From a virus (lineage: Duplodnaviria > Heunggongvirae > Uroviricota > Caudoviricetes), in IMG/VR virus record IMGVR_UViG_3300029497_000144: a stretch of DNA of 9,388 nt. The stretch is one strand, 5' to 3'. Every line of letters starts with the position of its first letter. Positions within the stretch are counted from its first letter, which is position 1. Below the pieces are notes generated by a model. The model made no database searches, was not told where the DNA came from, and saw only the letters and a program-made list of their open reading frames with translations. The translations under genes and the position numbers were made by a program. Of the stretch, positions 7,440 through 7,836 are shown piece by piece.

Positions 7440-7447
7440 TATGGCAG

Positions 7448-7460
7448 CCTCCTTTGTGTT
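7448..7460 (-). promoter_or_regulatory. seqC-like antisense target overlapping the Shine-Dalgarno of CDS 7101-7439
   Basis: - strand AACACAAAGGAGG. Its core ACACAAAGGAGG pairs over 12 nt (10 Watson-Crick, 2 G.U) with the loop UUUCCUUUGUGU of the structured RNA at 7529-7540. Confidence 0.45.
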
Positions 7461-7495
7461 TAAGGAGTCACCGCCTGAGTTTCCACGCTCTGAAA

Positions 7496-7575
7496 TGGCG
7501 GTGACGTTAGCAGGGGTGGAAATACCGGACACAAAGGAAACCGGCCTACGCGAACGTAGCCCCACTAACGCCACC
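7496..7575 (-). ncRNA. tRNA-like structured regulatory RNA, candidate P4 CI / P1 C4-type antisense RNA
   Basis: On the - strand: 11-bp closing stem GGUGGCGUUAG (7575-7565) with CUAACGUCACC (7510-7500) including one G.U, followed by 3' GCCA (7499-7496). Inside: GGGG/CCCC helix, hairpin CUACG-UUCG-CGUAG (7559-7546), hairpin GCCGG-UUUCCUUUGUGU-CCGG (7545-7525). The G.U pairs would be C/A mismatches on the + strand, which fixes the strand. Confidence 0.5.
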
Positions 7576-7627
7576 ATAGATACAGTACGGACGAGGCCGC
7601 TGATTTGATGTGCGTAGTGATCGGACA

Positions 7628-7651
7628 CAAAAAAAGACGCTTTCGGCGTCT
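7628..7651 (-). terminator. Intrinsic terminator in the operon leader
   Basis: - strand AGACGC-CGAAA-GCGUCU stem-loop (6 bp) followed immediately by a run of seven U. Confidence 0.6.
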
Positions 7652-7657
7652 GTGTCG

Positions 7658-7670
7658 CCCTTAGTGTGTT
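7658..7670 (-). promoter_or_regulatory. seqA-like direct repeat of the SD-overlapping target, upstream of the terminator
   Basis: - strand AACACACUAAGGG; the same AACACA..AAGG.G pattern as 7460-7448, pairing with the RNA loop as 5+4 bp around a 2-nt bulge. Confidence 0.4.
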
Positions 7671-7712
7671 CGGGTTTCCACGCCCGGCGCCAGATTTTGC
7701 AGCAACGCTTGG

Positions 7713-7721
7713 ACTATAACA
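7713..7721 (-). promoter_or_regulatory. Extended -10 promoter element TGtTATAGT (candidate leader promoter)
   Basis: - strand TGTTATAGT matches the extended -10 consensus TGnTATAAT at 8 of 9 positions. No good -35 is present. It lies about 45 nt upstream of the seqA-like repeat. Confidence 0.35.
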
Positions 7722-7836
7722 GCTTTTCTCTGCTAGGTGGTCATACCAGATAAAACCGTAACCCTTTAAGAGTTTTTCCTGTGCACGGCTCACCATCTTT
7801 TTGTTGAGGGTAAGCGCCTCGCGTACTGATAACGGA

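What the first reader, a model, noticed from the sequence alone, without database searches (positions are those of the whole stretch)
7440..7725. RNA-based immunity/attenuation circuit in the leader of the replication operon
Reading the - strand 5' to 3' there is an extended -10 (TGtTATAGT), a seqA-like box AACACACUAAGGG, a terminator (AGACGC-CGAAA-GCGUCU plus U7), an ~80-nt cloverleaf-like RNA closed by an 11-bp acceptor-like stem and ending in GCCA, and a second box AACACAAAGGAGG that includes the Shine-Dalgarno of the first operon gene. The 12-nt loop UUUCCUUUGUGU of the RNA is complementary to the second box (12 bp with 2 G.U) and to the first (9 bp with a bulge). The G.U pairs exist only on the - strand RNA. 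The layout (target, terminator, tRNA-like RNA, target at RBS) parallels what is described for P4 CI RNA (seqA/seqB/seqC) and P1 C4 RNA, with different sequences and here coupled to a non-canonical gene set. The comparison to P4/P1 is from memory.
Basis: partly seen in the sequence, partly recalled or inferred. Interest (0 to 1): 0.8.

Follow-up and report, generated by a model that had tools for sequence, protein, structure and literature searches.

The report
P4/P1-type antisense RNA immunity module
This is a real but already well-known kind of phage/satellite "RNA immunity" switch (the IsrK/seqA leader plus the C4/CI antisense RNA of phages P1 and P4). It sits in front of the cell-division-inhibitor and primase genes of a small E. 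coli satellite-like island, so it is ordinary rather than new.

Summary
The ~80-nt RNA matches Rfam C4 antisense RNA (RF01695) at 81 bits (threshold 45). The promoter-proximal leader plus terminator matches isrK (RF01394) at 60 bits (threshold 50). Phage P4 itself gives the same tandem pair of hits, and the P1 GenBank record annotates the same layout: a1, b1, C4, a2, b2, icd.

The first downstream ORF is Icd/Kil-like. The 813-aa ORF is a full-length homolog of P4 alpha primase (38% identity). A 297-aa "Ash family" ORF runs through the whole RNA module in frame with the Icd-like ORF, like the nested eta/kil genes of P4.

A 7-nt junction in the RNA (UUUCCAC) pairs with GUGGAAA both upstream and just downstream of the RNA. 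This three-way match covaries perfectly in 12 related modules, and the stems covary as well.

Corrections: the closing stem is 16 bp, not 11. Box 1 is a weakened copy that is no better than chance by itself. The sequences are homologous to P4, not "different", and the gene set is largely the P4 left-operon one.

The host element resembles the PICI EcCIMP1. Rfam C4/isrK hits in Gram-negative PICIs were already reported in 2023. Verdict: new member of a known kind, low interest.

The parts
7101..7994 (-). Long Eta-like ORF (297 aa as listed, Pfam Phage_ASH) that reads through promoter, leader, terminator, C4 RNA and box 2 in frame with the Icd-like ORF. The true start is uncertain, and a 10-N masked run at 7846..7837 lies inside it.
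   Evidence: ORF. PF10554 at 85.3 bits on residues 93-193, which is about nt 7718..7416; this frame stays open 354-711 nt upstream of the ATG in 9 satellite-type modules including P4, but not in P1, D6 or Yersinia.
7713..7721 (-). Extended -10 (TGTTATAGT) of the constitutive leader promoter, at the position of the -10 element that the P1 record annotates for P1c4 (and, from memory, of P4 PLE).
   Evidence: sequence. TATAGT/TATGGT conserved at this column; the P1c4 -10 TATAGT is annotated at the same relative place; no canonical -35.
7630..7706 (-). IsrK/seqA-type leader RNA: two hairpins, targets a1 and b1, and an intrinsic terminator. It is expected to give a ~77-nt short transcript.
   Evidence: Rfam isrK RF01394 at 60.3 bits (GA 50), full model 1-77.
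7675..7681 (-). a1 target (GUGGAAA) in the loop of leader hairpin 2, complementary to the C4 junction element.
   Evidence: 7 pairs, 6 with compensatory changes, 100% paired in 12 modules.
7658..7670 (-). b1 target (box 1, AACACACUAAGGG), a weakened complement of the C4 loop.
   Evidence: 9 bp with a central mismatch, -9.0 kcal/mol, rank 0.73; homologous position to P4 seqA / P1 b1; intact ACACAAAGG at this place in L149.
7629..7651 (-). Intrinsic terminator: 6-bp G+C-rich stem, 5-nt loop, U run.
   Evidence: It is conserved in P4, P1, D6 and relatives.
7494..7581 (-). C4/CI-type antisense RNA (Rfam match). The predicted mature RNA is about 7575..7497, by analogy with the annotated 77-nt P1 C4, with a closing stem followed by GCCA.
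   Evidence: RF01695 at 81.1 bits (GA 45); fold; closing stem 16 bp, 10 pairs compensatory; hairpin 1, 5 of 5 compensatory. P1 C4 ends.
7529..7540 (-). b' element: the 12-nt loop UUUCCUUUGUGU of hairpin 2.
7516..7522 (-). a' element: the 7-nt single-stranded junction UUUCCAC between hairpin 2 and the 3' strand of the closing stem.
7480..7486 (-). a2 target (GUGGAAA), which begins 8 nt after the end of the Rfam C4 match (7494).
   Evidence: 7 pairs, 6 compensatory, 100% paired. P1 a2 is annotated 4 nt after C4.
7448..7460 (-). b2 target (box 2, AACACAAAGGAGG), covering the Shine-Dalgarno sequence of the Icd-like ORF.
7101..7439 (-). First gene of the leader-promoter transcript: Icd/Kil-like ORF (112 aa). 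Its stop overlaps a following ATG (ATGA).
   Evidence: NCBIfam phage_ICD_like at 38.9 bits (cut-off 25). N-terminus matches P4 Kil..
6702..6947 (-). Small ORF (81 aa as listed; its upstream part is hidden by the N run at 6991..6982). Its stop overlaps the primase start (ATGCGTAA).
   Evidence: The homologous 113-aa CDS in L001 also overlaps the primase.
4268..6709 (-). P4 alpha-type primase/helicase (813 aa from the ATG at 6709): Zn ribbon, Toprim, D5_N, DUF5906, Pox_D5.
   Evidence: (TIGR01613; 38% identity to P4 alpha over 812 aligned positions (query residues 26-822), E 6e-173).

Best explanation
The region is the immunity module of a small integrative satellite-like island (PICI type, EcCIMP1-like). 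It is homologous to the IsrK/seqA-C4/CI system of satellite P4 and to immI of phage P1.

How it most likely works:
1. A constitutive promoter (-10 at 7721..7713) lies inside an Eta-like ORF and starts a leader transcript at about 7706.
2. Most transcripts stop at the intrinsic terminator (7651..7629). This gives a ~77-nt IsrK-like RNA that carries targets a1 and b1.
3. Read-through transcripts contain the C4-type RNA (about 7575..7497). It is cut out (RNase P at the 5' end in P1 and P4) and accumulates.
4. C4 binds the nascent leader through two single-stranded elements. The junction a' (UUUCCAC) binds a2 (7486..7480), and the hairpin loop b' binds b2 (7460..7448).
5. Binding at b2 covers the Shine-Dalgarno sequence of the Icd/Kil-like ORF. 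Without translation of that ORF, the tightly coupled downstream genes (small ORFs, primase, SSB, PerC) are not translated, and transcription ends prematurely by Rho-dependent polarity. Replication of the island and the toxic division inhibitor are thereby kept off.
6. a1 and b1 are second copies of the target. In P4 they are needed to set up immunity. On the short RNA they can also act as a decoy for C4.
7. Escape from repression probably comes from an upstream promoter. Ribosomes translating the long Eta-like frame would run through the leader, C4 and b2, preventing both RNA pairing and termination, as described for P4 eta/kil.

Shown here: family membership, the anatomy, covariation of stems and of both antisense-target pairs, and the gene context.
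Inferred from P1/P4/Gifsy-1 work: processing, the translation block, Rho dependence, the decoy role, and the Eta bypass.
For: -: Rfam C4 at 81.1 bits (GA 45, E 3.6e-15) and isrK at 60.3 bits (GA 50), both full-length.
- P4 and phage D6 give the same tandem isrK + C4 hits.
- the leader DNA aligns with P4, D6 and 9 other modules.
- the P1 record annotates promoter, a1 (7 nt), b1 (8 nt), C4 (77 nt), a2 (7 nt), b2 (8 nt, repression of icd/ant translation) and icd in the same order and spacing.
- 97% of cells paired. The closing stem has 10 of 16 pairs compensatory, hairpin 1 has 5 of 5, and a'-a2 and a1-a' each have 6 of 7. 0 of 500 shuffles reach this, and slid controls are 34-47% paired.
- six close relatives with the same scaffold carry six different loops, each matched by its own b1 and b2.
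- in 65-76 non-redundant viral modules the module's own loop beats foreign loops (downstream median rank 0.02; Wilcoxon p about 1e-8). The exact complement of the module's own junction heptamer is present upstream in 97% and downstream in 95%, against 0.2% or less for foreign heptamers.
- Icd/Kil-like first gene and P4 alpha-type primase.
- overlapping stop/start codons along the operon.
- the Eta-like (Phage_ASH) frame stays open across the module in satellite-type relatives only.
- Literature: PMC3632133, PMC4825925, PMC10111431, PMC5499578 (RNase P substrates).
Against: - No expression data. The short RNA, the processed RNA and the repression are all inferred.
- b1 is interrupted in this window, and more so in the E. 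coli MSB1_1D copy. The upstream half of the circuit may therefore be weakened.
- No -35 element was found.
- The isrK part alone does not fold better than shuffled sequence (z = -0.1).
- Two 10-N masked runs prevent checking the Eta-like frame and the ORF before the primase.
- In Gifsy-1 the homologous short RNA activates rather than represses, so the sign of the a1/b1 contribution is not settled.
Confidence: 0.85

Rival explanations
1. IsrK-type positive switch. As in Gifsy-1, the long read-through transcript folds into a translationally inactive form, with the a1/b1 region paired in cis with the C4 region. The short terminated leader RNA then acts in trans to open it and activate translation of the first ORF. 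On this view the module is mainly an activator circuit, and the C4 piece is a by-product or a secondary player.
For: - (PMC4825925): short IsrK activates orf45-anrP about 100-fold, and the stable downstream RNA STnc1160 is the C4 homolog.
- the MFE of the whole 282-nt leader pairs the a1/b1 region with the 3' half of C4 and puts the SD in a local hairpin (z = -2.98).
- a full isrK match with its terminator.
Against: - The a'/b' elements match a2/b2 at least as well as they match a1/b1. In this window b1 is the weaker site, which fits repression at the RBS better than a1/b1-centred control.
- P1 and P4 genetics assign the repressor role to C4/CI.
- The two models are not exclusive.
Confidence: 0.3
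2. Decaying relic. The island is a cryptic remnant and the module no longer regulates anything. The weakened box 1 and the unusually long (112-aa) Icd-like ORF would be signs of decay.
For: -: b1 is interrupted here and in E. coli MSB1_1D, whereas it is intact in L149, which has the same specificity.
- the Icd-like ORF is 112 aa here, against 62-66 aa in the nine satellite-type relatives (64 aa also in EcCIMP1).
- only about 45 of 5426 complete E. coli genomes carry the island.
Against: - All 26 stem pairs of C4 are intact.
- a1, a', a2, b' and b2 are perfectly matched.
- The terminator and -10 are intact.
- The Eta-like frame is open on both sides of the masked run at 7846..7837.
- The operon ORFs, including the 813-aa primase, are intact.
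- The related EcCIMP1, which has the same module, is experimentally mobilised.
Confidence: 0.1
3. Protein-only reading. The region simply encodes an Ash-family protein (as genome annotation says), and the RNA features are incidental.
For: -: Pfam Phage_ASH at 85 bits.
- PGAP labels the region 'ash family protein'.
- a long open frame.
Against: - The Pfam domain coincides with the RNA module.
- P1, D6 and Yersinia keep the RNA module with the frame closed.
- Compensatory double changes in stems, and in three-way a1/a'/a2 sets, are not explained by protein coding.
- PGAP itself marks the CDS as a pseudogene in L001 and EcCIMP1.
Confidence: 0.03

Closest known systems
Satellite phage P4 immunity region (PLE - seqA - CI RNA with seqB - seqC - kil/eta - ... 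- alpha)
   Same: - Same two Rfam families in the same tandem order.
- The leader DNA aligns.
- The first gene is Kil/Icd-like with the same MATT...AAVRR N-terminus.
- A long Eta/Ash frame reads through the module.
- An alpha-type primase lies downstream in the same operon.
- Both the a-type heptamer and the b-type loop have matching targets on each side of the RNA.
   Different: - Different specificity elements: loop UUUCCUUUGUGU against UAUCCUGUGAAG, and junction UUUCCAC against UUCUCAC.
- The spacer between terminator and RNA is shorter here: 48 nt from the end of the isrK match to the start of the C4 match, against 107 nt in P4.
- b1 is weakened.
- No epsilon, sid, delta or psu genes are named in the annotation of the homologous complete island, so the element is not a P4-like satellite in the strict sense.
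Phage P1/P7 immI operon (c4 - icd - ant1/2)
   Same: The layout matches the one annotated in the P1 record: promoter, a1, b1, terminator, 77-nt C4, a2, b2 at the icd RBS, icd. The two-site (a', b') antisense logic is the same, and the first gene is Icd-like.
   Different: - The cargo after icd is a replication module instead of the antirepressor Ant.
- An AntA-family gene lies upstream instead.
- b pairing is 12 nt here against 8 nt annotated in P1.
- A long in-frame ORF covers the module here, whereas that frame is closed in P1.
Gifsy-1 IsrK - STnc1160/orf45 - anrP locus of Salmonella
   Same: The Rfam isrK family was defined on that RNA. There too, a short terminated leader RNA is followed on read-through transcripts by a processed stable RNA.
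   Different: In Gifsy-1 the short RNA was shown to activate translation of the downstream ORF in trans, and the cargo is an antirepressor. Neither has been tested here.
Gram-negative PICIs with 'Bro-zone' immunity RNAs, e.g. EcCIMP1 of E. coli MP1
   Same: - Same gene order: HTH - hypothetical - AntA/AntB - DUF4222 - ['ash' pseudogene] - Icd-like - ... - primase - ... - PerC.
- EcCIMP1 carries Rfam C4 (81.1 bits) and isrK (69 bits) at the same place.
- Rfam C4/isrK hits in GN-PICIs were reported in PMC10111431.
   Different: - Different integration site (dinD/yicC against tRNA-Thr/proA).
- Different primase type (P4 family against TOPRIM/DUF927).
- Different a and b specificities.
- The EcCIMP1 paper does not mention the RNAs.

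Membership tests
C4 antisense RNA family (Rfam RF01695; P1/P7 C4, P4 CI) | Sequence and structure match the family covariance model above the curated threshold | tested here: met
   81.1 bits against GA 45, E 3.6e-15, model positions 1-87 of 87.
C4 antisense RNA family (Rfam RF01695; P1/P7 C4, P4 CI) | Y-shaped fold: a long closing stem enclosing two hairpins, supported by compensatory changes | tested here: met
   (MFE equals centroid, z = -4.75); closing stem 16 bp with 10 compensatory pairs, hairpin 1 with 5 of 5, 100% paired in 12 modules.
C4 antisense RNA family (Rfam RF01695; P1/P7 C4, P4 CI) | Loop element (b'/seqB) complementary to a target at the RBS of the first downstream gene (b2/seqC) | tested here: met
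   12 of 12 pairs on the SD of the ATG at 7439. The module's own loop against foreign loops has rank 0.0.
C4 antisense RNA family (Rfam RF01695; P1/P7 C4, P4 CI) | Second element (a') complementary to a target just 3' of the RNA (a2) | tested here: met
   UUUCCAC against GUGGAAA, with 6 of 7 pairs compensatory across 12 modules; 95% of 65 viral modules.
C4 antisense RNA family (Rfam RF01695; P1/P7 C4, P4 CI) | Duplicate targets upstream of the RNA (a1, b1 / seqA) | tested here: inconclusive
   a1 is perfect. b1 is present at the homologous place but interrupted, at -9.0 kcal/mol and rank 0.73. The Rfam c4-a1b1 model scores only 25.2 bits against GA 46.7.
C4 antisense RNA family (Rfam RF01695; P1/P7 C4, P4 CI) | RNA is excised from the leader transcript (RNase P 5' cut) and represses in trans | not testable with these tools
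   Only the substrate-like features are visible: a stem followed by GCCA at 7499..7496. C4 and CI are cited as RNase P substrates in PMC5499578.
isrK / P4 seqA leader RNA (Rfam RF01394) | Match to the covariance model above threshold, ending in an intrinsic terminator, directly upstream of a C4-type RNA | tested here: met
   60.3 bits against GA 50; terminator; the same tandem in P4, D6, Kluyvera and Yersinia.
isrK / P4 seqA leader RNA (Rfam RF01394) | Hfq binding and trans-activation of the long transcript | not testable with these tools
   Known only from Gifsy-1 experiments.
P4 nested eta/kil arrangement | Long ORF (Phage_ASH) in frame with the Kil/Icd-like ORF and covering promoter, leader and RNA | tested here: met
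   (PF10554 at 85.3 bits). (frame open 396 nt up to the N run; 354-711 nt in relatives, 456 nt in P4). The masked run at 7846..7837 leaves the upstream part unverified.
P4-like satellite in the strict sense (int, alpA, alpha, epsilon, sid, delta, psu) | Capsid-size and helper-control genes sid, delta, psu and epsilon are present | tested here: not met
   the homologous complete island in E. coli MSB1_1D has an integrase, an HTH regulator and a P4-family primase, but no gene annotated as sid, psu, delta or epsilon; no such Pfam hits among the 10 window ORFs scanned. This rests on annotation and Pfam only, and several hypothetical proteins were not examined.
Gram-negative PICI (EcCIMP1-like) | About 10-kb island with integrase, AlpA-type HTH, Bro-zone genes and primase, no structural or lysis genes, and one transcriptional direction | tested here: met
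   (L001 annotation). (the same order in EcCIMP1).
Gram-negative PICI (EcCIMP1-like) | Induction, excision and packaging by a helper phage | not testable with these tools
   Shown only for EcCIMP1 with phage Kapi1 (PMC11773190).

The most novel reading that the evidence does not exclude
The two short specificity elements (a heptamer and a loop) may form a combinatorial 'two-key' address, and that address could mediate RNA cross-talk between co-resident elements. The window and the island at the same site in E. coli MSB1_1D share the b key but carry different a keys. A viral contig (L149) carries both keys of the window on a different replication module. If one matching key gives partial repression, or if a helper or rival element supplies a matching a1/b1 decoy RNA, then induction of such PICI-like islands, or the unexplained superinfection immunity reported for EcCIMP1, could be RNA-mediated. 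The weakened b1 here would be a tuned decoy rather than decay.
Probability: 0.1. Interest if true: 0.55.

Novelty: new member of a known kind. Interest (0 to 1): 0.2.

Why it matters
It matters mainly for annotation.
- In E. coli genomes this RNA module is routinely labelled as an 'ash family protein' pseudogene, or as part of Icd-like or Rha genes.
- blastn finds homologous modules in 878 of 5426 complete E. coli genomes.
- A recent experimental paper on the related PICI EcCIMP1 lists the region as a protein and does not mention the RNAs.

Recognising the module tells us that replication and the division inhibitor of this island class are probably held off by a P4-type antisense RNA. It also gives exact bases to mutate (a', b', a2, b2). 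Finally, it shows that immunity specificity in this class is set by two short covarying elements that are swapped between otherwise near-identical islands. None of this changes the known principle.

Tried and rejected
1. tRNA-like gene: ARAGORN finds none in the window.
2. Fixed-column covariation count for loop against b2: rejected, because the pairing register relative to the SD shifts by 2 nt between relatives (window against Kluyvera). Re-aligning to fit would bias the count. I used tests of a module's own loop against foreign loops instead.
3. Is the module a constant companion of this primase family? No. Among 70 primase-related loci, C4 lies upstream of the primase in only 7 and downstream in 2.
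4. Cross-talk with the EcCIMP1 helper: phage Kapi1 has no C4-type RNA at E <= 1.
5. Search of viral contigs for a2-b2-type targets of the window's specificity (GTGGAAA N10-40 ACACAAAGGAG): 60 hits. By a rough estimate that assumes a collection of about 10^11 bases, this is near what chance would give. Only L149 and L150, the two contigs already found to carry the window's C4 elements, were recognised; the other 58 were not examined.
6. Original P1/P4 papers (PMC176756, PMC523184, PMC312442) are not held in the library. The P1/P4 mechanism is therefore cited through the P1 GenBank annotation and secondary papers.
7. Downstream-gene typing of 72 viral C4 loci by tblastn with Icd, Ant and primase queries gave few hits and was not pursued.
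8. A weak aceE-II match inside the primase gene and a CRISPR-DR30 match were below threshold and ignored.
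Full report
**Observation.**
- Extended -10, TGTTATAGT, at 7721..7713.
- Box 1, AACACACUAAGGG, at 7670..7658.
- An intrinsic terminator at 7651..7629.
- A strongly structured RNA at 7581..7494 (-38.9 kcal/mol, z = -4.75), followed by GCCA at 7499..7496.
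- A 12-nt hairpin loop at 7540..7529.
- Box 2, AACACAAAGGAGG, at 7460..7448, on the Shine-Dalgarno sequence of the ATG at 7439.

The loop pairs with box 2 over 12 contiguous positions, 2 of them G.U. The exact motif occurs nowhere else in the window.

Three corrections are needed.
- The closing stem is 16 bp, not 11, and the fold is a Y, not a cloverleaf. ARAGORN finds no tRNA.
- Box 1 pairs only as 4 + 5 bp around a mismatch. At -9.0 kcal/mol this is no better than unrelated loops on the same stretch (rank 0.73).
- No -35 element is present.

**Identity.** The Rfam scan settles what the RNA is. C4 antisense RNA (RF01695) matches at 81.1 bits against a threshold of 45. The leader plus terminator (7706..7630) matches isrK (RF01394) at 60.3 bits against 50. 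Both matches cover the full model.
- Phage P4 gives the same two hits in the same order at its seqA and cI positions, as does the P1-like phage D6.
- The leader DNA of the window aligns base for base with P4 and D6.
- The GenBank record of P1 annotates exactly this layout: promoter, a1 (7 nt), b1 (8 nt), the 77-nt C4 RNA, a2 (7 nt, 4 nt after C4), b2 (8 nt, 'repression of icd ant translation'), then icd.

**Refined anatomy.**
- The loop is the b' element.
- The 7-nt single-stranded junction UUUCCAC (7522..7516), between hairpin 2 and the closing stem, is the a' element. It is complementary to GUGGAAA in the loop of leader hairpin 2 (a1, 7681..7675). It is also complementary to GUGGAAA starting 8 nt after the Rfam C4 match (a2, 7486..7480).

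The upstream target is thus a1 + b1 and the downstream target is a2 + b2, as in P1.

**Covariation.** I aligned 12 modules: the window, E. coli MSB1_1D, Kluyvera, two Enterobacter, Scandinavium, Kosakonia, Aeromonas, P4, D6 and two Yersinia.
- a1 equals a2, and the junction is their exact reverse complement, in every module. There are 8 different heptamers.
- Counting pairs: a'-a2 and a1-a' each have 6 of 7 pairs with changes on both sides and are 100% paired. The 16-bp closing stem has 10 compensatory pairs. Hairpin 1 has 5 of 5.
- Overall 97% of cells pair, against 78% in shuffles (0 of 500 reach the observed value) and 34-47% when partners are slid.
- Six close relatives share the window's scaffold and primase type but carry six different loops. 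Each loop is matched by its own b1 and b2.

I also collected viral contigs carrying the C4 core with any loop (72 loci).
- A module's own loop beats foreign loops on its own downstream target (median rank 0.02, 63% at or below 0.05) and, more weakly, on its upstream target.
- With one representative per distinct loop, the longest run is 9.5 against 6.2 nt downstream and 8.4 against 6.4 nt upstream (p about 1e-8).
- The exact complement of the module's own junction heptamer is present upstream in 97% and downstream in 95% of modules, against 0.2% or less for foreign heptamers.

Box 1 of this window is the exception. A viral contig with the same a and b keys (L149) has an intact ACACAAAGG at that place. 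The window has ACAC-U-AAGG, and E. coli MSB1_1D is further degraded.

**Context.**
- The first ORF (7439..7101) is Icd-like (NCBIfam 38.9 bits against 25) and shares its N-terminus with P4 Kil.
- It is followed by small ORFs with overlapping stop/start codons.
- Next comes an 813-aa primase that is a full-length homolog of P4 alpha (38% identity, E 6e-173; domains).
- SSB and PerC genes follow.
- A 297-aa ORF (7994..7101) belongs to Pfam Phage_ASH (85 bits). Its conserved domain coincides with the RNA module, and it is in frame with the Icd-like ORF.
- That frame stays open 354-711 nt upstream of the ATG in the nine satellite-type modules, including P4. It closes within 12-33 nt in P1, D6 and Yersinia. 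This is the nested eta/kil design described for P4 (summarised in PMC10111431).
- The window starts in yicG-dinD. In E. coli MSB1_1D the complete island (integrase, HTH, AntA, DUF4222, 'ash' pseudogene, Icd-like, primase, SSB, PerC) lies between dinD and yicC. About 45 of 5426 complete E. coli genomes hold most of the window.
- The gene order matches EcCIMP1, an experimentally mobilised E. coli PICI. EcCIMP1 carries Rfam C4 (81.1 bits) and isrK (69 bits) at the same spot.
- No sid, psu, delta or epsilon genes are annotated, so it is not a P4-like satellite in the strict sense.

**Mechanism.** The most likely working is the P1/P4 one.
1. A constitutive promoter inside the Eta-like frame makes a leader transcript.
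2. Most transcripts end at the terminator as a short IsrK-like RNA.
3. Read-through transcripts yield the processed C4 RNA. C4 and CI are RNase P substrates (PMC5499578).
4. The a' and b' elements of C4 bind a2 and b2 and cover the SD of the Icd/Kil-like gene.
5. The untranslated, tightly coupled operon is then silenced by polarity.
6. Transcription from upstream, with ribosomes translating the Eta-like frame, would bypass the block.

The role of a1/b1 (co-target, or decoy/activator as for IsrK in Gifsy-1) is open. The MFE of the whole leader pairs a1/b1 with the 3' half of C4 in cis. Processing, the translation block, Rho dependence and the bypass are inferred from relatives, not shown here.

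**Novelty.**
- Barquist et al. [quoted passage not shown]
- Hershko-Shalev et al. 2016 note the same kinship.
- Mageeney et al. 2023 report that Rfam C4 and isrK hit several Gram-negative PICIs in their 'Bro zone'.
- blastn finds homologous modules in 878 of 5426 E. coli genomes and 202 phage records.

What is specific here is a particular pair of specificity keys, a weakened b1, and the island itself. The finding is a new member of a known kind. Its practical value is to correct the 'ash family pseudogene' annotation and to supply exact mutational targets.

Noticed in passing
window 7846..7837 and 6991..6982: Two runs of 10 N (masked bases). One lies inside the Eta-like ORF and the other inside the ORF between the Icd-like gene and the primase. 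Reading frames across them cannot be verified.
   Followed up: no
window 7700..7693 (- strand): The loop of leader hairpin 1, GCAAAAUC, is nearly invariant in the 12 aligned modules, while the stem and everything around it varies. No complementary partner was seen in C4 or the targets. Its role (protein, Hfq or RNase site?) is unexplained.
   Followed up: no
window 6917..6911 and 6582..6576 (- strand): Two further copies of the a-type heptamer GUGGAAA lie on the operon strand, inside orf81 and the primase gene. There are 6 copies in the window against 1.2 expected (1 of 200 shuffles reaches 6). Three belong to the module. The rest may be chance or extra C4 contact sites.
   Followed up: no
window 7681..7480 against L001 16485..16790: The island at the same chromosomal site in E. 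coli MSB1_1D has the same loop and b2 but a different a set (UUUGCAC / GUGCAAA / UUUGCAC). The change is concerted at all three places, while flanking sequence is nearly identical.
   Followed up: partly
L149 4460..4790 (IMG/VR contig 3300011771_000049): A viral contig carries the window's exact a and b keys, with an intact b1 (ACACAAAGG). Downstream is a different large ORF (921 aa) where the primase would be. This suggests the immunity module moves between replication modules.
   Followed up: partly
L085 (three modules at about 7526, 8380 and 9229 on the - strand); also L084 and L138 (two each): Some viral contigs carry two or three C4 modules in tandem about 850 nt apart. Each has a different loop and its own matching targets.
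   Followed up: no
L036 8493..8680 and L051 9849..9936 (Yersinia pestis, Y. similis): In Yersinia relatives of the primase island the isrK + C4 module lies downstream of the primase, followed by a 32-aa ORF. The in-frame long ORF is closed.
   Followed up: no
window 7416..7718; L001 16531..17094; L147 23690..24184: The conserved domain of Pfam Phage_ASH coincides with the RNA module. PGAP annotates the region as an 'ash family protein' pseudogene. The family's conservation may largely reflect RNA constraints.
   Followed up: partly
window 1900..9388; L001 11000..21100: The island is inserted between dinD and yicC. No tRNA gene was found in the window or annotated between dinD and yicC in L001. 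About 45 of 5426 complete E. coli genomes hold at least 80% of the window.
   Followed up: partly
L031 9995..10322 (Photorhabdus asymbiotica): Six CRISPR-DR4 repeats lie about 3.7 kb downstream of a related primase gene.
   Followed up: no
L008 2494..2559 (Rahnella woolbedingensis): An Rfam int-alpA RNA (RF02996, 36.9 bits against GA 35.8) lies upstream of a related primase that lacks a C4 module.
   Followed up: no
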